A stretch of 64,000 bases of DNA. Source: a virus. Within the stretch, counting starts at the first letter, position 1. Every line of letters starts with the position of its first letter. Shown here one piece after another: positions 3,010 through 29,590 of the stretch. The notes under the pieces are model-generated. The model did not search any database and was not told where the DNA came from. It was given only the letters and a program-made list of their open reading frames with translations. Both the position numbers and the translations under genes were made by a program. The stretch covers positions 1 through 64,000 of IMG/VR virus record IMGVR_UViG_3300047443_000115; one strand, given 5' to 3'.

Positions 3010-3180
3010 TCAACGGCTGAACGACTGGAACGCCGCCCGCTCCACGCGCCCGGCACTCGCCGCGTCGGGCATGATGCGCGCCAGGGCGGGTGACGCGGCG
3101 GCGCTGCCCCGGGAGGCCAGTTCCGCGAGGGTGATACGGCGGCGGGTCTGGGGTGCGGCGGCCAGGTGGGTGTGGTCCAT
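3010..3180 (-). CDS. FxSxx-COOH-like small peptide, 56 aa (not in the ORF track)
   Basis: Hand translation: MDHTHLAAAPQTRRRITLAELASRGSAAASPALARIMPDAASAGRVERAAFQSFSR*; GGAGGAG RBS. Confidence 0.65.
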   Translation of the reverse strand: MDHTHLAAAPQTRRRITLAELASRGSAAASPALARIMPDAASAGRVERAAFQSFSR

Positions 3181-23504: not shown

Positions 23505-24842
23505 TCAGGCGTGCTCGATAACGACACCGCGCTTGAACAGCGCCGCGTCGCCCGTGCCCGCATCGGAGGGAACGCCGTAGTCGCCGACCCACGACCAGGT
23601 CGTGGAGATGACCTGCTGCAGACGGTCGGTCGGCGGACGCACGATCAGCGAGATGTCCACGCCGGCCGCCGGAGTGATGTTCCGGATCTCCGGCACATCC
23701 TCCACTCCCGAGCCTTCCAGGAGGGTTCCGGTCCGCTCGAACGGGGCGGCGATCAGCGCACCCGCACCGAGGACAACCGGCCGGTGCACCGTAAGCGTTG
23801 TCGCCGAGCCACCCAGGACGGTCGGGACCTCCAGGTTGCGCACCCAGTCAATCCCCGCAAACCGTCCGATGCTCAGGTCGCGGTAGATGGGTGAATCGAC
23901 CCTGCCTTGCAACGCCTGCTTGAAGTCGGAGTCGGCGAACAGCTGGGCCTCAGTGTCCGGGTCGATGTGCGCCACGTAGTAGCCGCCCAGGGTGGGGACC
24001 GCCATCTTCCGCAGGCGAGCGACCGCCGACCGGAAGTTCGCGAAGGTGACCGTGTTGGAGCTGGACAGGTCGAAGGCTGAACTGCCCGTCGCCCGGACCG
24101 AGACCGGAGCGTTCGCCGCGACCACCGAGTCGCCAGCGGTGTCCGCACGGGCCGTACCCAGGGTCAGCGTTCCCGGAGTGCCCGGAGTTACGCCGGTCAC
24201 CGTGTTCGCGACGCCCGCGATCGACACGGTCAGCGGGTTCGACGCCGACACGGCCGTCGGAACGCCGTTGACGAGTACCTTCTCGAAGCCGTTCGTGGAC
24301 TGCACGATGATCGATGAGTCCGAACCGGCCGTGGTGGTGCACCAGGTCCGGCCACCCGCGTAAGCGGTGTACAGCTTGTTCCGGGCGATCTGGTTCAGGG
24401 ACTGGCCGGCGTTGATGCCGAGCGTCTCGCCGTCGGACAGGAACTTGTTCGCCAGCGCCATCGAGCTGGACAGCATGTTGGTGTCCATGCTGTTGCCGTA
24501 CTGGTCCATCGTGACCGAGTACTGCTCAAGGTTGTACGTGGCCGCCGACGGGTCCGAACCCGTGATCGCGGTGGTCGCTGTCGCCAGCAGGCCGCGGCGG
24601 GTGAACGTCTTGGTGTCACCGAGGCCACCGGCCCACGGCTGCGGGTCGGCGATCTGCGGGAACAGGAACTCGGGCACGAGCGCGTCCTGGAAGACGCGGT
24701 CGAGGATGCCGTTCTGCAGCATCGCCCGGATCGCAGCCGGCACGGTGCTGCGCACGTCGTGTCGGTCGAGACGGAACCACGGCCGCGCCGCGCGCCGCTG
24801 GACATTCAGCCGCGGGCGGACCGCGGTCATGGTGGGGCTCAT
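23505..24842 (-). CDS. Major capsid protein
   Basis: 445 aa after scaffold and protease genes; HK97-fold-like segments (QYSVTMDQYG, YVAHIDP). Confidence 0.85.
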   Translation of the reverse strand: MSPTMTAVRPRLNVQRRAARPWFRLDRHDVRSTVPAAIRAMLQNGILDRVFQDALVPEFLFPQIADPQPWAGGLGDTKTFTRRGLLATATTAITGSDPSAATYNLEQYSVTMDQYGNSMDTNMLSSSMALANKFLSDGETLGINAGQSLNQIARNKLYTAYAGGRTWCTTTAGSDSSIIVQSTNGFEKVLVNGVPTAVSASNPLTVSIAGVANTVTGVTPGTPGTLTLGTARADTAGDSVVAANAPVSVRATGSSAFDLSSSNTVTFANFRSAVARLRKMAVPTLGGYYVAHIDPDTEAQLFADSDFKQALQGRVDSPIYRDLSIGRFAGIDWVRNLEVPTVLGGSATTLTVHRPVVLGAGALIAAPFERTGTLLEGSGVEDVPEIRNITPAAGVDISLIVRPPTDRLQQVISTTWSWVGDYGVPSDAGTGDAALFKRGVVIEHA

Positions 24843-24845
24843 TCG

Positions 24846-25034
24846 TCACTCCTGGGTGATTTCTACGGACACGAGGTCCGGGTACTGCCGGGCGTATTCC
24901 TCAAGCCCGAGCAGTGCGGTTTGGGTAATTGCGGTGATCGCCGCACAGACGCGGCCGTCCACGGCGTGGCCCTCGTGACCGGACACCTCAAGGAGCGTGT
25001 GTCCGTCGCCCAACCGGGCGCGGATTTCGATCAC
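24846..25034 (-). CDS. prp: Prp-like (ribosomal-processing cysteine protease/DUF464) miniprotease
   Basis: EVSGH(20)...VC(30)AAITA...LGLEEYARQYPD matches the Prp His-Cys dyad pattern. Confidence 0.8.
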   Translation of the reverse strand: MIEIRARLGDGHTLLEVSGHEGHAVDGRVCAAITAITQTALLGLEEYARQYPDLVSVEITQE

Positions 25035-25783
25035 TAGTAGCGCTGCCGGAAGCCGACCTTCGCCAACTCGGCCGCGACCTCGTCCTTCGGGGCGCTGCGG
25101 AAGTCGGTCGCAGGTGCAGGCAGACGCGGCCCCTGGCCCGGGTCAGGCTTCGGCTGACGTACCGGCTTCTTCTCCGGCTCCGGCGCGACTGGCTCGGGCT
25201 TGGCCCAGTGGGGCTTGCGCTCCAGCAGGTCAGCCAGCGCTGCCTCGATCGCGTCGGTGTCGATCTCGCCGTCCGAGTCGACGTAGTCCTTGACGTCGCG
25301 CATCAGCACGTCCACGGCGTCGCCGACGTCGGCGAACTGGCCGACGGCCAGCACCTTCACCTCGGCCTGCACCGCTCGCGCGGTCGCCTTCGTGGCCTGA
25401 TCGGTGAGCCGCTCAGCCCTCGCCTTCTGACGGTCCAGCTCGGACTTGTCGCGGTCCTCGAAGTCCTGGACCTTCTGGGCGAGGTCGGCGAGCTGCTTCT
25501 TGGCCGTCGCGGCTTCTTTCCTTGCTGCAGCCCTGTCGGCCTTCATGCGCGCAAGGGCCCTCTTGCCCTCGTCGCCGAGCTTGTCAGCGCCCTCCGGCTC
25601 AGGGTCCGGGTCCGTGGGATCGGGATCCGGGTCCGGCTCAGGATCGGCCGGGTCGGGGTCGCCCTGGGGGTCGACAGGATCCGGGTCGGCCGGATCCACC
25701 GGGTCGGGGTCGTCGTGTCGGTCGAGCCGGAACCAGTCCGCGCCCTGGGCAGCGGACAGCCAGCTTTTACGGATGCTGTGCAT
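25034..25783 (-). CDS. Capsid scaffolding protein
   Basis: D/P-rich N-terminus, coiled coil, KPDPGQG C-terminal motif. Confidence 0.85.
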   Translation of the reverse strand: MHSIRKSWLSAAQGADWFRLDRHDDPDPVDPADPDPVDPQGDPDPADPEPDPDPDPTDPDPEPEGADKLGDEGKRALARMKADRAAARKEAATAKKQLADLAQKVQDFEDRDKSELDRQKARAERLTDQATKATARAVQAEVKVLAVGQFADVGDAVDVLMRDVKDYVDSDGEIDTDAIEAALADLLERKPHWAKPEPVAPEPEKKPVRQPKPDPGQGPRLPAPATDFRSAPKDEVAAELAKVGFRQRY

Positions 25784-26177: not shown

Positions 26178-28157
26178 TCAGACGCTCCAGCCCAGATAGC
26201 CGTATTGGCGGAGCAAACTGATGGCCTCGTCGCGGCTACCGGCGATGCGATAGATCTGCTCAGGCAGCAGACGCGGCGAGGAAAGTTGGAAACGCCTGGG
26301 GTACCGGGGCGAAGCCGTGCCCGCCCGATAGGCGCGCGACCGCTCCATCTGGAAGTACAGGCCGCGGCGCGTGGTGCCCTCGTAGGTGGCGCGCAGTCGG
26401 CCGCCGTAGCCGTCGGCCGCGGTGTACATGCCGCGGCGGGCGTTGACGACGGAGTTCATGTCTGCGCCGTCCCGGATCGCCTTCGCCCCGGCCTGGGTGA
26501 AGATGCGGTCCTGCTCGGCGCGGGACAGGCCCTTGAAGTAGGCCTGCGGATCGAACGCGCCGGGGATGTGGCGGTCACGAGCGATCAGCTTTGCGGGCAT
26601 ATGCGTACAGTCACAGTTTGATACAATGAGACTGTTCGCAACGTGCCACCCCTCGACCGAAGTGAGGCTGTAAACGTGCCCGCTCCACTCGCTCCGGCGA
26701 AGCTCGACTACGCGATCGAGCTCTACCTGTCCGGAAAGCCGATCCAGGAGATCGCGACCTTGGCGGGCATATCCGTCACGCGTTTCCACCGAGAACGAGT
26801 CTCCCGGGGCATCCCATCGCGGAAGACCCGCGATCTCCCCATCAGTGAAATCGCGTCCGCCTACCTCAATGGAGCCAGCGAGTTCGCGCTCGGCAAGCAG
26901 TACGGGGTGTCCCGAAATGTCATCGCGCGCCGCCTCGCGGAAGCCGGAGTACAGCGGCGTGACGCCAGTGAAGCTGGCGTTGTCAGGGCGGCCAAGTTGA
27001 GCGCTGGCGAGCGCAAGACCCAGGCCGCCGCCGCCAACCGGGCCGCCCGATTGCGTCGCGTCCCACAGATTCAAAAGCATCGACGCGCGCTCGGCATCGA
27101 ACTGGCCGGTCAAGCCCAGTCCTCCGGCGAGGCCGAGTTGCACCAACTTCTTGCCGACCGTGGCCAGATTGCCACTCGCCAGCGCGCGATCGGCGTATAC
27201 AACGTCGACCTCGCCTTGCTGCCCGTCGCCGTGGAAGTCCTCGGTGGCGGTTGGCATGCGGTCAAGACCGTGCACGCTGAGCGCACCCCATACGTCCTCG
27301 ATGAGGGATGGCATCTCGTGATGGTCTGGGACTACGAGGGGCGTAGCGCCCTCGGGGCGGGTGCTGCGGACTACCTCGTCGCCTTCTTGGATGAGGTTCG
27401 CCGGAACCCACCCGCGACTTGTCAGTACCGGGTGATTTCCGGTCAGGGCGAGGTTCTGGCCGCTCGCGGTAGAGAGGACAATGAGTTCCCCTTGGAACCA
27501 CCGCCGCGTGGCCGCCTGTGACCTAGGCCCCGACACCACCACTCCGGCCGGGAAGCAGCGCGGATGCCGTTGGAAGCCGGTATTCCAGCCGTACTCACGT
27601 CCGGCGAGGACGATGCACCGACTGCACGCGGGCGGGTTGACCACCCGGATATAGCCGTTGATCGTGCGGTTCCCCGCGATCGACACCCCGGTGGCCGCCC
27701 TCCCGGCGTCCGTGACCTCCGACGCCGCCATGCGCAGCAACTGCTGCAGGCCCGTCATCATCGCCTCGACCTCATCGACGCCTGCCGCGATGGCCGTCTT
27801 CGACGTGATGAGCGGCAGATCCAGCAGCGTGTCCAGCGACCGACCATCAGCAGCAAGCCCAGCGAAGGCCTCTGGACGGACACGGCCCGCGGGATCCGAA
27901 CTCAGACCCCGTGCCGCGATGATGGACTCGACGTAGGCGTCTGCGGCTGCCGCCGTAGCCAACTGGCCGGCGGTCACCGTGCGGACCACCTCCGGGCCGA
28001 TGTAGATGGCCCACGAACGGCTCAGATCGCGGCGGTCGATCTCCCGCCACAACTGCTGAACCCGGTCCGCCACCCGGCGGGCATGCGACTGCTGAGCCAC
28101 ATAGAAGGCGTTCGCGAGCTCCTCGGCCGACAAATCCCGCACCGACCCCGTGGCCAT
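26178..28157 (-). CDS. MuF/VG15-like minor head protein interrupted by an intein (345 aa after splicing)
   Basis: ACSRCIVLAG...FQRHPR|intein|CDCTHMP; splicing restores the HPxCDC motif. Confidence 0.85.
   Translation of the reverse strand: MATGSVRDLSAEELANAFYVAQQSHARRVADRVQQLWREIDRRDLSRSWAIYIGPEVVRTVTAGQLATAAAADAYVESIIAARGLSSDPAGRVRPEAFAGLAADGRSLDTLLDLPLITSKTAIAAGVDEVEAMMTGLQQLLRMAASEVTDAGRAATGVSIAGNRTINGYIRVVNPPACSRCIVLAGREYGWNTGFQRHPRCFPAGVVVSGPRSQAATRRWFQGELIVLSTASGQNLALTGNHPVLTSRGWVPANLIQEGDEVVRSTRPEGATPLVVPDHHEMPSLIEDVWGALSVHGLDRMPTATEDFHGDGQQGEVDVVYADRALASGNLATVGKKLVQLGLAGGLGLTGQFDAERASMLLNLWDATQSGGPVGGGGLGLALASAQLGRPDNASFTGVTPLYSGFREAARDDISGHPVLLAERELAGSIEVGGRDFTDGEIAGLPRWDAPGDSFSVETRDGYARQGRDLLDRLSGQVELDRVVELRRSEWSGHVYSLTSVEGWHVANSLIVSNCDCTHMPAKLIARDRHIPGAFDPQAYFKGLSRAEQDRIFTQAGAKAIRDGADMNSVVNARRGMYTAADGYGGRLRATYEGTTRRGLYFQMERSRAYRAGTASPRYPRRFQLSSPRLLPEQIYRIAGSRDEAISLLRQYGYLGWSV
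26619..26627 (+). promoter_or_regulatory. Extended -10 promoter TGaTACAAT for the antisense endonuclease gene
   Basis: Antisense of intein codons ATT GTA TCA (I-V-S), which are rare in a ~70% GC genome; ~50 bp upstream of a GTG start with GAGG RBS. Confidence 0.55.
26676..27521 (+). CDS. Antisense-encoded putative homing endonuclease: two HTH repeats plus Vsr/DUF559-like PD-(D/E)XK nuclease
   Basis: AIELYLSGKPIQEIATLAGIS; AYLNGASEFALGKQYGVSRNVIARRL; SSGE...RAIGVYNVDLAL..VAVEVLGGGWH...R...LDEGWHLVMVW. Confidence 0.8.
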   Translation: MPAPLAPAKLDYAIELYLSGKPIQEIATLAGISVTRFHRERVSRGIPSRKTRDLPISEIASAYLNGASEFALGKQYGVSRNVIARRLAEAGVQRRDASEAGVVRAAKLSAGERKTQAAAANRAARLRRVPQIQKHRRALGIELAGQAQSSGEAELHQLLADRGQIATRQRAIGVYNVDLALLPVAVEVLGGGWHAVKTVHAERTPYVLDEGWHLVMVWDYEGRSALGAGAADYLVAFLDEVRRNPPATCQYRVISGQGEVLAARGREDNEFPLEPPPRGRL

Positions 28158-29590
28158 CAGGCCACCTCCGCGGGTTCGGGATCAGCCTCAGGCATGACGG
28201 GATCGGGCGGAGGCTTCGGGCCCGCCTCCAGCGCCGAGAAGTCGCCCGCCATGATGCGCTGCATCGCGTCCTGCGCGGCGGCCTCGTCCTCTTCCTCCAT
28301 GCGCTCGATCTGCGCCTGCGTGTACCGCAGGTCTTCGCGCGTCTGCCGGAGAGGCACGATCTTCGCCTGGAACTTCTTCACCGAAGCGTCCGCGACCTGC
28401 GCCACCGTCGGAGTTGAAGCGTCCCGCCAGATCGTCTCCAGTGACCGGGCCGCCGGATCCCACTCGCCATCCTTCACTCGCAGCACAAGCCGCATGACGC
28501 GCTCCCACGAGCCGCCCCACGCCCGCTGCTTCCGCTCCGCGCGCTTCACCAGGCGGGTCTCGCTACTGCGGATCGCATCCGCCGAGGCCGGGTTCTGGGT
28601 GCTGTAGCCCAGGAACTGCGGAGGTAGACCGGACAGGCTGGAGACCAGCTGCGCGAGCTGATTCAGCGTGCTGTGGAAGTTGCTGAGCGACGCTTCCGGG
28701 AACTGGACGACATCCGCGCCATCCTGCTTGGAGCGCTCCGTCGCCCACATCCGGCCGATGATCCGGCTGAACGCCGACACCCGACGGCCGGACTCATCGA
28801 CGAAGTCCTCCTCGCCGAAGCCGAACGCCACGCGCCGCGGCGTTGCGTGATACTCGGCGCTGACCATCATGTCCGTTGCGATCTTGCAGGCCGCGTCGGA
28901 CAGTGGGATGACGTCCTGGAGCTCCGACACACCGCCCGGACACTTCAGGCGCGGCCGGTTCGGCAGCACCTCGACCAGAACCTCGCCCGTCTCGTGCTCA
29001 TCCCTCGGATACTCCGGATCCTCGACCCAATGACCCGACTCCTTCACCCACCACACCGTGGCGTCCGGCAGGTACAGCGTCGCGTGATCGACCTTCCGGC
29101 CCTCGTCGCCGTCCTCCTGCCAGCGCTTCACCGCAGCCGCCACCCGACGCGTCCGAGGATCGAACTCCGCGAACATGTCCAAGGCGCTCTCGACGGTGAT
29201 CAGCGGCGTCGAGTCGTCATCCTCGTTCGCGCCCACCACGATGTACGAGCGCCGCATCGCCAGGGCATCCAGGTGCCCCATCTGCGACTGCTCGTCCATG
29301 TCATTGGCCTGCCAGATCCGCCAGAGCTCGTCATCGGCGTCCGCCACGCCGGGGAAACGGAAGCCCTCCACGTCCAGGCGCTCCTCGATGCTGTCGACGA
29401 TCAGGCGCGGCCAGTTGATGACGACCTGGCGAACCGTCTCCTGCAACTCCACCTGAAGCTCCGGCGCCATGTACGACAGCGGCTGAGAGCCCTCGTAGTA
29501 GGAGTTCAGGCGCTTGAGCTCGTTCAACTCCTTGTCGTGGCACGAGATCAGGTGAGTCAGCCACTGCAGCTCGGAGCGCTCCACAGGCAC
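28157..29590 (-). CDS. Portal protein (SPP1 gp6-like)
   Basis: YYEGSQPL, NWPRLIVDSIEERL, IWQANDMD, NPASADAI motifs. Confidence 0.92.
   Translation of the reverse strand: MPVERSELQWLTHLISCHDKELNELKRLNSYYEGSQPLSYMAPELQVELQETVRQVVINWPRLIVDSIEERLDVEGFRFPGVADADDELWRIWQANDMDEQSQMGHLDALAMRRSYIVVGANEDDDSTPLITVESALDMFAEFDPRTRRVAAAVKRWQEDGDEGRKVDHATLYLPDATVWWVKESGHWVEDPEYPRDEHETGEVLVEVLPNRPRLKCPGGVSELQDVIPLSDAACKIATDMMVSAEYHATPRRVAFGFGEEDFVDESGRRVSAFSRIIGRMWATERSKQDGADVVQFPEASLSNFHSTLNQLAQLVSSLSGLPPQFLGYSTQNPASADAIRSSETRLVKRAERKQRAWGGSWERVMRLVLRVKDGEWDPAARSLETIWRDASTPTVAQVADASVKKFQAKIVPLRQTREDLRYTQAQIERMEEEDEAAAQDAMQRIMAGDFSALEAGPKPPPDPVMPEADPEPAEVA

What the first reader, a model, noticed from the sequence alone, without database searches (positions are those of the whole stretch)
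26616..27557. Intein whose homing endonuclease is encoded on the antisense strand
Seen: the MuF/VG15-like head protein carries a 314-aa intein (CFPAG...TGNHP...VYSL...IVSN|C); removing it restores HPR-CDC. The middle of the intein shows no LAGLIDADG or HNH motif. Instead the opposite strand holds a 281-aa ORF (26676-27521) entirely inside the intein, with two HTH repeats and a Vsr/DUF559-like nuclease (YNVDLAL..VAVEVLGGGWH...EGWHLVMVW). The two frames are codon-aligned, and the nuclease C-terminus overlaps about 50 codons of the N-terminal splicing domain including block B, so that DNA is dual-coding. Established: intein homing endonucleases are normally in-frame domains of the intein polypeptide. 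Inference: a nuclease gene invaded a mini-intein in reverse orientation, which was tolerated because the codon-aligned antisense frame of GC-rich genes is often stop-free. The result would be a two-strand selfish element whose splicing domain protects the host gene while a separately expressed nuclease drives homing, uncoupled from late-gene timing. I know of no description of this architecture but cannot check the literature here.
Basis: partly seen in the sequence, partly recalled or inferred. Interest (0 to 1): 0.95.

Follow-up and report, generated by a model that had tools for sequence, protein, structure and literature searches.

The report
Intein with antisense-encoded homing endonuclease
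A self-splicing protein insert (intein) in a phage head-assembly gene carries its DNA-cutting "homing" enzyme as a separate gene on the opposite DNA strand; it is real, under selection and recently mobile, but a 2025 preprint already described the layout.

Summary
The MuF/VG15-like head gene (26178-28157, minus) holds a 314-aa class-1 intein (26616-27557). A 281-aa ORF (26676-27521, plus) lies inside it in exact codon register.

- **Fold:** the antisense protein folds confidently (pLDDT 85) as two HTH units plus a Vsr-like nuclease (Z 9.5 to Vsr, 8.7 to I-Bth0305I). The sense frame folds only as a HINT splicing domain at its two ends; its middle is unstructured.
- **Conservation:** in all 111 related loci (GC 0.38-0.73, many phyla) the host frame stays open across the nuclease gene, codon-aligned. 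Low-GC relatives should show 5-15 antisense stops by chance and show none.
- **Selection:** substitution patterns switch from the sense to the antisense frame in the intein middle.
- **Mobility:** the intein is 99.5% identical between alleles whose exteins are only 93-96% identical, and precise intein-free alleles (HPR|CDC) coexist.
- **Expression signals:** the nuclease start codon, a GAGG and a TGnTACAAT box are the reverse complement of intein blocks F and G, backed by strong codon-choice bias.

The architecture is not new. Gosselin, Arsenault and Gogarten (bioRxiv 2025) reported anti-sense VSR-like endonucleases in actinophage minor-capsid inteins. This scan has also met it before on other DNA (116 notes). 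No expression or cleavage data could be obtained.

The parts
26178..28157 (-). Host gene: MuF/VG15-like head-morphogenesis (minor capsid) protein, 659 aa including the intein
   Evidence: ORF. phrog_1522 at 1.8e-87 in three stretches around the intein, and Pfam VG15. It lies between the portal-like gene (28157-29590) and the scaffold and capsid genes.
27558..28157 (-). N-extein, residues 1-200, ending in the conserved ...FQRHPR
   Evidence: It is 97% identical to the intein-free protein P0121.
26616..27557 (-). Class-1 intein, 314 aa (Cys201..Asn514), followed by Cys515
   Evidence: Junctions. HINT fold with Z 11.6 to the Mtu RecA mini-intein. Invariant C1, T39, N41, H42, H294, N314 in alignment A2.
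26178..26615 (-). C-extein, residues 515-659 (CDCTHMP...) plus the stop codon
26676..27521 (+). Antisense homing-endonuclease gene, 281 aa, codon-aligned with the intein frame (nuclease residue r lies opposite intein residue 295-r)
   Evidence: - More than 120 homologues of 38-89% identity, several named very-short-patch-repair endonuclease by JGI.
- AF2 model with mean pLDDT 85.
- Antisense-frame purifying selection.
26676..26954 (+). Two helix-turn-helix DNA-binding units of the nuclease (residues 1-47 and 50-93)
   Evidence: - Z 5-6 to Hin, resolvase, paired and Tc3 HTH domains.
- Profile hit to 2lvs at E 3e-4.
- HTH_7 and HTH_23 Pfam hits in 14-16 of 32 members.
27114..27470 (+). Vsr-like nuclease domain of the antisense protein (residues 147-265), with invariant N176, D178, E187, H194
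   Evidence: - Z 9.5 to 1cw0 (Vsr), 8.7 to 3r3p (I-Bth0305I), 8.5 to 3hrl (DUF559).
- Profile hit to 3hrl at E 1e-3.
- MTES_1575 in 20 of 32 members and DUF559 in 5 of 32.
- Invariant residues.
26826..27272 (-). Sense-frame middle of the intein (intein residues 96-244), which acts only as a read-through linker
   Evidence: pLDDT about 30 in the sense-frame model. It is unalignable in the sense frame apart from the mirror image of the nuclease active site. Substitutions concentrate at sense codon position 1.
27420..27443 (-). Intein block B (TGNHPVLT). Its reverse complement encodes CQYRVISG in a C-terminal beta-hairpin of the nuclease
   Evidence: Alignments A1 and A2. Strands 250-255 and 260-265 of the nuclease model align to the C-terminus of Vsr. 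All three codon positions are constrained here.
26664..26681 (-). Intein block F (GHVYSL). Its reverse complement supplies GAGG (26664-26667), an 8-nt spacer and the GTG start (26676-26678, opposite His494)
   Evidence: -.
- The nuclease frame opens at the antisense of the block-F His in 83 of 83 distinct loci, and an SD-like motif lies 8 nt upstream in 67 of 83.
- Codon bias: His CAT 0.56 vs 0.21, Leu CTC/CTT 0.82 vs 0.35.
26616..26630 (-). Intein block G (LIVSN) written in rare AT-rich codons. Its reverse complement reads TGATACAAT (26619-26627, + strand), an extended -10-like box 48 nt before the start
   Evidence: -.
- Val GTA/GTT 0.86 vs 0.09 (p 5e-25); Ile ATT/ATA 0.71 vs 0.12 (p 2e-11).
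- TAnnnT lies 45 or 48 nt upstream of the start in 60 of 80 sequences.
- Promoter function is inferred, not shown.

Best explanation
This is a mobile intein built on both DNA strands.

**Host strand.** The MuF-type head gene is translated straight through 942 nt of insert. The two ends of that insert (about residues 1-95 and 245-314) fold into a HINT domain. This domain splices the insert out at HPR|CDC and restores the conserved HPxC-xC motif. The middle 150 residues are only a stop-free linker.

**Opposite strand.** In the same codon register, a 281-aa protein is made from its own start codon. It consists of two HTH units and a Vsr-like nuclease. It most likely recognises and cuts the intein-free HPR|CDC allele of a co-infecting or resident phage, so that recombinational repair copies the whole element in (homing).

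**Expression signals.** The nuclease start codon is the reverse complement of the block-F histidine codon. Its ribosome-binding site is the reverse complement of the following Asn/Ser-Leu codons. A likely extended -10 box is the reverse complement of the block-G Ile-Val-Ser codons. The element would therefore carry its expression signals inside its own splicing motifs.

**What is shown and what is inferred.**
- Shown here by computation: the anatomy, both folds, selection on both frames, conservation across phyla, and recent horizontal spread with coexisting empty alleles.
- Inferred: protein splicing, transcription and translation of the antisense gene, and cleavage of the empty site.
For: 1. 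**The antisense protein is real.**
   - More than 120 homologues of 38-89% identity have been called as stand-alone ~281-aa proteins.
   - The AF2 model has mean pLDDT 85.
   - Residues 147-265 match Vsr (Z 9.5), I-Bth0305I (Z 8.7) and DUF559 (Z 8.5). HTH units sit at residues 1-47 and 50-93.
   - Profile hits to 3hrl and 2lvs.
2. **The sense frame is only a splicing domain.**
   - pLDDT is high at residues 1-68, 81-95 and 245-314, and about 30 in between.
   - All of the top 50 structural hits are inteins, Hedgehog or BIL domains, with about 106 residues aligned.
3. **The arrangement is conserved.**
   - In 111 of 111 loci the opposite strand is open across the nuclease match and codon-aligned, at GC 0.38-0.73.
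   - Every sense ORF carries the intein in the HPxC|xC motif of a MuF-type protein.
   - Four annotated phages (Aaphi23, BPS11Q3, Malisha, a Pseudomonas phage) have the match antisense to the head gene.
   - Low-GC loci should show 5-15 antisense stops and show none. Of 109 loci, 106 have none.
4. **Selection switches frame.**
   - In exteins and the terminal blocks, d3 > d1.
   - At residues 291-450, d1 > d3, and antisense amino-acid identity (0.37-0.72) exceeds sense identity (0.21-0.54).
   - At residues 251-290 all three positions are constrained.
5. **The element is mobile.**
   - The intein shows 5-6 differences in 942 nt against L116-L119, while the exteins are 92.5-95.7% identical.
   - Extein third positions differ at 0.13-0.17, against 0 of 149 nuclease-frame third positions in the intein middle (p 3e-8 to 3e-10).
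   - Intein-free alleles L112-L115 occur in the same metagenome series.
6. **Expression signals.** See, as detailed under parts.
Against: - There is no transcript, protein, splicing or cleavage evidence.
- A generic two-hexamer sigma-70 scan finds no promoter in 26400-27700, so any promoter would lack a recognisable -35.
- The window's own nuclease falls below curated Pfam and NCBIfam cut-offs for DUF559.
- The nuclease profile does not reach Vsr or I-Bth0305I by sequence. Assignment to the Vsr-like group rests on predicted structure and on relatives.
- The position that is Asp in the DUF559 'E-x-D-G' motif is Leu189 here (alignment), so the active-site chemistry may differ.
- Low divergence of the intein could also come from ordinary recombination between co-infecting phages rather than nuclease-driven homing.
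- The loci were retrieved with peptide patterns, one of which mirrors intein block B. The claim that no free-standing member exists is therefore biased.
Confidence: 0.85

Rival explanations
1. The antisense ORF is a non-functional mirror image. Only the sense-frame intein polypeptide matters, and the antisense 'homology' merely reflects conservation of the sense protein in a register where GC-rich DNA lacks stops.
For: - In this window the codon-aligned antisense frame is also open over the N-extein (347-aa ORF 27564-28607).
- The exteins contain no TTA, CTA or TCA codons.
- GC by codon position inside the intein is ambiguous.
Against: - Substitutions in the intein middle fall at sense position 1, and antisense identity exceeds sense identity, even though the alignment was made in the sense frame.
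- The antisense protein folds at pLDDT 85 into known DNA-binding and nuclease folds. The sense middle has pLDDT about 30.
- The frame is open in relatives of 38-50% GC, where P(0 stops) is 1e-3 to 2e-7 per locus.
Confidence: 0.03
2. The antisense protein is real but is no longer (or never was) a homing nuclease. It could be a DNA-binding regulator or a nicking or repair-type enzyme retained for another role. In that case the intein spreads only by general recombination and vertical descent.
For: - Leu replaces the Asp of the DUF559 E-x-D-G motif.
- There is no sequence-level match to I-Bth0305I or Vsr.
- The preprint notes that most VSR-like cases look vertically inherited.
- Among 31 distant relatives, synonymous divergence of the splicing blocks resembles that of the exteins.
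Against: - N176, D178, E187, W193 and H194 are invariant or nearly invariant across 32 proteins down to 38% identity.
- The intein is about 10-30 times less diverged than its flanks in the local population, and precise empty alleles coexist. This is the pattern expected for active homing.
- The protein always accompanies the intein, in 111 of 111 loci.
Confidence: 0.1
3. The nuclease is expressed, but not from signals inside blocks F and G. It would be read from a promoter in the C-extein or the downstream gene, or only as read-through antisense RNA. The codon bias in blocks F and G would then have another cause, for example RNA structure or recognition of the intein-plus allele.
For: - No -35 element, and no hit in the generic promoter scan.
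- 15 of 80 sequences lack a TAnnnT at the expected distance, and 16 of 83 lack an SD-like motif.
- Promoter consensus in actinobacteria is loose.
Against: - The bias is site-specific, with internal controls showing none: Asn and Tyr of block F.
- Subfamilies with a different block G (IITHN) form TGTTATAAT in another codon register at a similar distance.
- The spacings are fixed: 8 nt from SD to start, and 45 or 48 nt from the hexamer to the start.
Confidence: 0.3

Closest known systems
Inteins with an anti-sense VSR-like homing endonuclease in actinobacteriophage minor capsid (MuF-like) proteins (Gosselin, Arsenault and Gogarten, bioRxiv 10.1101/2025.01.02.630785)
   Same: - Full (not split) intein in a minor capsid protein.
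- Nuclease in a separate ORF on the antisense strand.
- Predicted Vsr-like core: their Z 10.6 to 1CW0 over residues 144-267, mine Z 9.5 over 147-265.
- A long helical N-terminal part.
- A sense-frame middle without recognisable structure.
   Different: Their survey covers PhagesDB actinophages only. [quoted passage not shown] Here:
- The ORF overlaps about 110 confidently folded codons of the splicing domain.
- The family extends to phages and prophages of Proteobacteria, Chloroflexi, Bacteroidota, CPR and others.
- Frame-specific selection and local spread are quantified.
Inteins with an antisense LAGLIDADG endonuclease ORF (Synechocystis DnaX, Chloroflexus SpoVR-like; cited in the preprint as Gorbalenya 1998 and Gogarten 2002)
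   Same: An endonuclease gene on the strand opposite the intein reading frame, with the host frame kept open through it.
   Different: A different nuclease fold (LAGLIDADG) and different host genes. I know these cases only through the preprint's citation and did not examine them here.
'Fractured genes': split inteins with a free-standing Vsr-like endonuclease gene between the halves (Dassa et al. 2009, PMC2677866)
   Same: A Vsr-like nuclease that is physically associated with an intein but translated as a separate protein.
   Different: There the host gene and intein are broken into two genes and splice in trans. Here the sense ORF is continuous and the nuclease is antisense and overlapping. 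That paper mentions no opposite-strand arrangement.
I-Bth0305I, prototype of the EDxHD homing-endonuclease family (Taylor et al. 2011, PMC3239194; PDB 3r3p)
   Same: A modular enzyme with an N-terminal DNA-binding region and a C-terminal Vsr-like catalytic domain. Structural match Z 8.7 over 91 residues.
   Different: It is encoded in a group I intron on the sense strand. There is no HMMER-level sequence match to my profile. Its N-terminal modules are described as NUMOD-like, whereas here they are Hin/resolvase-type HTH units.
Canonical bifunctional inteins with an in-frame LAGLIDADG or HNH domain (for example PI-PfuI 1dq3, TliVMA 7qss)
   Same: The same HINT splicing fold (Z 9.3-10.6) and the same presumed homing life cycle.
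   Different: In those inteins the nuclease is a domain of the intein polypeptide. Here the in-frame middle is unstructured and the nuclease is a separate antisense product.

Membership tests
Intein (HINT domain, class 1) | N-terminal Cys/Ser nucleophile and a block B TxxH motif | tested here: met
   Cys201 comes first. T39, N41 and H42 are invariant in 33 sequences.
Intein (HINT domain, class 1) | C-terminal Asn followed by a Cys/Ser/Thr +1 residue, with block F and G motifs | tested here: met
   ...GHVYSL...LIVSN|C. H294 and N314 are invariant. The penultimate residue is Ser here and His or Lys in relatives.
Intein (HINT domain, class 1) | HINT fold | tested here: met
   Z 11.6, rmsd 1.9, 106 residues aligned to the Mtu RecA mini-intein. 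The top 50 hits are all inteins, Hedgehog or BIL domains.
Intein (HINT domain, class 1) | Precise in-frame insertion: homologues without it have an uninterrupted host motif | tested here: met
   P0121 and L112-L115 are exactly 314 aa shorter, 97% identical, with junction HPR|CDC or HPK|CDC.
Intein (HINT domain, class 1) | Protein-splicing activity | not testable with these tools
   Needs expression of the 659-aa precursor.
Anti-sense VSR-like HEN inteins (Gosselin et al. 2025) | Complete nuclease ORF on the strand opposite a full intein | tested here: met
   ORF 26676-27521 (+) lies inside intein 26616-27557 (-). The same holds in 111 of 111 related loci.
Anti-sense VSR-like HEN inteins (Gosselin et al. 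2025) | Vsr-like catalytic core in the predicted structure of the antisense product | tested here: met
   Z 9.5 to 1cw0_A over residues 147-265.
Anti-sense VSR-like HEN inteins (Gosselin et al. 2025) | Host protein is a MuF-like minor capsid protein | tested here: met
   phrog_1522 and VG15 hits. Gordonia phage relatives are annotated as MuF-like minor capsid protein.
EDxHD / Vsr-like homing endonucleases (I-Bth0305I) | Vsr-like nuclease fold | tested here: met
   Z 8.7, rmsd 2.7, 91 residues aligned to 3r3p_A.
EDxHD / Vsr-like homing endonucleases (I-Bth0305I) | Composite E-D-x-H-D catalytic motif | tested here: inconclusive
   D178, E187 and H194 are invariant. No residue-by-residue superposition on Vsr or I-Bth0305I was made, and the profile gives no sequence hit to 3r3p or 1vsr.
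EDxHD / Vsr-like homing endonucleases (I-Bth0305I) | Cleaves the insert-free allele of its host gene | not testable with these tools
   A candidate substrate exists (the L113-type HPR|CDC allele). This needs a biochemical assay.
DUF559 / REase_MTES_1575 (PD-(D/E)XK-like) | Significant match to the Pfam models | tested here: inconclusive
   - MTES_1575 in 20 of 32 family members and DUF559 in 5 of 32.
- The profile hits the DUF559 structure 3hrl at E 1e-3.
- The window's own protein gives only NF007294 at E 0.044 and no Pfam nuclease hit.
Canonical bifunctional intein | Endonuclease domain in frame within the intein polypeptide | tested here: not met
   The sense middle has pLDDT about 30, with no LAGLIDADG or HNH hit.
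Split intein / fractured gene | Host gene and intein broken into two separately translated halves | tested here: not met
   The sense ORF is continuous in the window and in all 111 loci.

The most novel reading that the evidence does not exclude
The element is one ancient, obligately two-stranded mobile unit rather than a chance invasion. Across many bacterial phyla the same nuclease family sits in the same codon register in the same MuF HPxC|xC site. More than 100 codons specify folded parts of two proteins at once. The intein's block F and G codons double as the -10 box, ribosome-binding site and start codon of the antisense nuclease, so neither half can drift without damaging the other. The published description does not cover this breadth, the frame-specific selection or the embedded expression signals.
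Probability: 0.5. Interest if true: 0.55.

Novelty: new member of a known kind. Interest (0 to 1): 0.4.

Why it matters
- **Annotation.** Gene finders call only one strand, so this element is annotated either as a long 'head morphogenesis protein' or as a stray 'very-short-patch-repair endonuclease' (for example in Micromonospora carbonacea). Recognising it corrects the annotation of a common phage structural gene.
- **Dual coding.** It is a clean natural case of long sense/antisense dual coding with two folded products. That makes it useful for studying how overlapping genes evolve.
- **Intein origins.** It bears on the 'splicing domain first, nuclease later' view of intein origins.
- **A testable system.** The local population here contains intein-plus and intein-minus alleles of near-identical phages. 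This offers a ready experimental system for testing homing by a trans-acting, antisense-encoded nuclease.

Tried and rejected
- **GC by codon position** inside the intein was ambiguous (GC1 about equal to GC3, about 0.75) and could not decide the coding strand.
- **Megablast** of the gene against the phage collection found nothing.
- **Single-sequence phmmer against the PDB** gave only a marginal HTH hit.
- **Foldseek E-values** for the multi-domain nuclease model were all above 1e-3, so VIA-align Z-scores were used instead.
- **The generic sigma-70 two-hexamer scan** found no promoter in 26400-27700.
- **A search for longer (fused or in-frame) relatives** of the nuclease found none. The tool itself calls this weak evidence.
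DNA of the empty allele was obtained from IMG/VR instead.
- **Literature searches** for 'opposite strand' and 'antisense strand' together with 'intein' gave nothing relevant. The search on 'Vsr' found the preprint.
- **Chance-ORF reading rejected.** I considered that the antisense ORF is a chance open frame of GC-rich DNA and rejected it (see rivals).
Full report
**What is there.** The minus-strand ORF 26178-28157 (659 aa) lies between a portal-like gene and the scaffold and capsid genes. It is a MuF/VG15-type head-morphogenesis protein: phrog_1522 at 1.8e-87, matched in three stretches around an insert, and Pfam VG15. The insert is a 314-aa intein, Cys201 to Asn514, window 26616-27557, followed by Cys515. 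The plus strand holds an ORF at 26676-27521 (281 aa, or 292 aa from an upstream GTG). It lies wholly inside the intein and is in exact codon register with it.

**Is the open antisense frame meaningful?** In this window alone it is not. The genome is 67% GC, and the exteins contain no TTA, CTA or TCA codons. A 347-aa codon-aligned antisense ORF also covers the N-extein. GC by codon position inside the intein is ambiguous. The case therefore rests on other evidence.

**The antisense product is a real protein.**
- It has more than 120 homologues of 38-89% identity that gene callers predicted as ~281-aa proteins. JGI names several 'very-short-patch-repair endonuclease'.
- With an alignment of 32 of them (A1), AlphaFold2 gives mean pLDDT 85.
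- Residues 147-265 match Vsr (1cw0, Z 9.5, 110 aligned), the I-Bth0305I catalytic domain (3r3p, Z 8.7) and a DUF559 protein (3hrl, Z 8.5, 27% identity).
- Residues 1-47 and 50-93 are Hin/resolvase/paired-type HTH units.
- The sequence profile hits 3hrl (E 1e-3) and the tandem-HTH protein 2lvs (E 3e-4).
- Of the 32 family members, 20 match Pfam MTES_1575 and 5 match DUF559.
- N176, D178, E187 and H194 are invariant.

**The sense frame is only a splicing domain.** With an alignment of 33 sense-frame inteins (A2), the model is confident at residues 1-68, 81-95 and 245-314. It has pLDDT of about 30 across 96-114 and 124-243. Its structural neighbours are all inteins, Hedgehog or BIL domains (Z 11.6 to the Mtu RecA mini-intein, about 106 residues aligned). 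The only conserved sense motif in the middle, EDFHGDG..VDVV, is the mirror image of the nuclease's YNVD...VAVEVLGG core.

**Conservation of the arrangement.**
- tblastn of the antisense protein against 50,697 phage records hit 129 records. In every listed row the match lies under a head-morphogenesis, MuF-like or unnamed gene.
- In Aaphi23, Salmonella phage BPS11Q3, Gordonia phage Malisha and a Pseudomonas phage, the match is on the strand opposite the annotated gene. The antisense ORF is intact: 338 aa in Aaphi23 at 43% GC, and 316 aa in BPS11Q3.
- I fetched 107 further loci from GTDB genomes and IMG/VR. In all 111 loci the opposite strand is open across the whole nuclease match and is codon-aligned. 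GC ranges from 0.38 to 0.73. The hosts include Actinomycetota, Chloroflexota, Bacteroidota, Proteobacteria, Saccharibacteria and Omnitrophota.
- Every sense ORF shows the intein inserted in the HPxC|xC motif of a MuF-type protein.
- In low-GC loci the extein frequency of TTA, CTA and TCA predicts 5-15 antisense stops across the nuclease region, and none is seen. P per locus ranges from 1e-3 to 2e-7. Of 109 loci with enough extein to score, 106 have none.
- Caveat: one of the retrieval patterns mirrors intein block B, so the absence of free-standing members is a biased observation. A search among longer proteins found no fused form, which is weak evidence.

**Which frame is selected?** I made a codon alignment of 31 relatives in the sense frame, which is conservative for this test.
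- In the exteins and terminal splicing blocks, substitutions concentrate at sense position 3, and sense identity exceeds antisense identity.
- Between residues 291 and 450 they concentrate at sense position 1, which is position 3 of the nuclease frame. There, antisense amino-acid identity (0.37-0.72) exceeds sense identity (0.21-0.54).
- Between residues 251 and 290 all three positions are constrained.

Nuclease residue r lies opposite intein residue 295-r. The Vsr-like domain (147-265) therefore overlaps intein residues 30-148, and the first HTH overlaps residues 248-294. About 66 plus 47 codons are confidently folded in both predicted structures. Block B (TGNHPVLT) is opposite CQYRVISG, a beta-hairpin that aligns with the C-terminus of Vsr.

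**Evidence of recent movement.**
- A 345-aa protein (P0121) is 97% identical to both exteins and lacks exactly the 314 residues of the intein.
- IMG/VR holds four such intein-free loci (L112-L115, junction HPR|CDC or HPK|CDC). It also holds four intein-bearing ones (L116-L119) from the same series of metagenomes.
- Between the window and L116-L119 the intein differs at 5-6 of 942 nt (99.4-99.5% identity). The exteins of the same genes are only 92.5-95.7% identical.
- To control for dual coding, I compared effectively synonymous sites only. Extein third positions differ at 0.13-0.17. Nuclease-frame third positions in the unconstrained intein middle show 0 differences in 149 (p 3e-8 to 3e-10).
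- The intein is therefore much younger than the alleles that carry it, as expected for homing. Ordinary recombination is not excluded.

**Expression signals.**
- The GTG at 26676 is the reverse complement of the block-F His494 codon. GAGG at 26664-26667 lies 8 nt upstream and mirrors the Ser-Leu codons of block F.
- In 83 of 83 distinct loci with a recognisable block F, the nuclease frame opens at the antisense of that His codon (ATG in 57, GTG in 26). In 67 of 83, a GGAGG/GAGG-type motif lies 8-9 nt upstream (8 nt in nearly all).
- In the high-GC subset, codon choice at these sites departs sharply from the exteins of the same genes:

| Site | Codons | At the site | Extein background | p |
|---|---|---|---|---|
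| Block-F His | CAT | 0.56 | 0.21 | 2e-6 |
| Block-F Leu | CTC/CTT | 0.82 | 0.35 | 1e-11 |
| Block-G Val | GTA/GTT | 0.86 | 0.09 | 5e-25 |
| Block-G Ile | ATT/ATA | 0.71 | 0.12 | 2e-11 |
| Block-G Ser | TCA | 0.27 | 0.04 | 8e-5 |
| Block-F Asn and Tyr (controls) | AAC, TAT | no bias | – | – |

- The block-G codons read TGATACAAT on the plus strand (26619-26627), 48 nt before the start.
- A TAnnnT hexamer ends 45 or 48 nt upstream of the start in 60 of 80 distinct sequences. In the high-GC subset it is present in 48 of 56, against 2.4% of comparable windows elsewhere.
- A two-hexamer promoter scan finds nothing, and no RNA data could be obtained. Promoter function therefore remains an inference.

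**What is known.**
[quoted passage not shown] They give a predicted Vsr match (Z 10.6 to 1CW0, residues 144-267) and an unstructured sense middle.
- They cite earlier antisense LAGLIDADG cases.
- They do not discuss promoter, RBS or start codon. [quoted passage not shown]
- Vsr-like homing endonucleases were described in fractured genes (PMC2677866) and characterised as I-Bth0305I (PMC3239194).
- This scan has also met the element often: 116 notes in at least 95 genomes. Other notes, including one on this same window, already proposed the block F/G expression-signal idea. My statistics were made before I read those notes, and they agree.

**Verdict.** The claim that it is undescribed is wrong. 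The 'GC-rich tolerance' explanation is unnecessary. This is a new member of a known kind. This window adds frame-specific selection, cross-phylum conservation, an intein-plus/intein-minus population with a young intein, and quantified codon-level evidence for embedded expression signals.

Noticed in passing
window 27558-27560 (codon 200), compared with L112-L119 around locus position 3098-3100: All five intein-bearing alleles have CGC as the last N-extein codon. All four intein-free alleles differ at the nucleotide next to the insertion point (CGG in three, AAG = Lys in one). This could be a target-site variant that resists cleavage, or a co-conversion mark. The sample is small.
   Followed up: partly
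L092, L094, L101, L110 (sense ORFs opposite the nuclease match): In a subgroup the intein appears to begin with Ala instead of Cys (...HPNGR|AELPNN......HHNGL|AEVEGN...). This suggests an Ala-1 or class-3-like splicing variant of the same element.
   Followed up: no
L029 2204-2851 and L018 3001-3786: Two relatives have a stop in the nuclease frame while the host frame stays open. These are probably decaying nucleases on the way to mini-inteins.
   Followed up: no
window 27564-28607 (+): A 347-aa ORF, codon-aligned and antisense to the N-extein and part of the portal gene. It shows that long open antisense frames occur by composition alone in this genome. I did not search it against any library.
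   Followed up: no
window 24756-24779 and 25712-25735 (-), and ORF 24846-25034 (-): The major capsid and scaffold proteins share the octapeptide WFRLDRHD near their N-termini. A 62-aa ORF lies between the two genes. This may be a shared processing site with a small protease. Another note of the scan has also flagged it.
   Followed up: no
P0089 / L008 (Micromonospora carbonacea NZ_FMCT01000011.1): In this RefSeq genome the antisense nuclease is annotated as 'Very-short-patch-repair endonuclease'. This shows how the element gets misnamed as a repair gene.
   Followed up: no
Gordonia phages Affeca, Angelicage, Fosterous, Vivi2 (hits H2-H8): Their MuF-like minor capsid genes hold an antisense match to this Vsr-like nuclease (34% identity, 91% coverage). 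The preprint names Affeca and 'Angelicase' as examples of endonuclease VII-like inteins (cluster 47). Whether that is the same gene or another gene in these phages was not checked.
   Followed up: no
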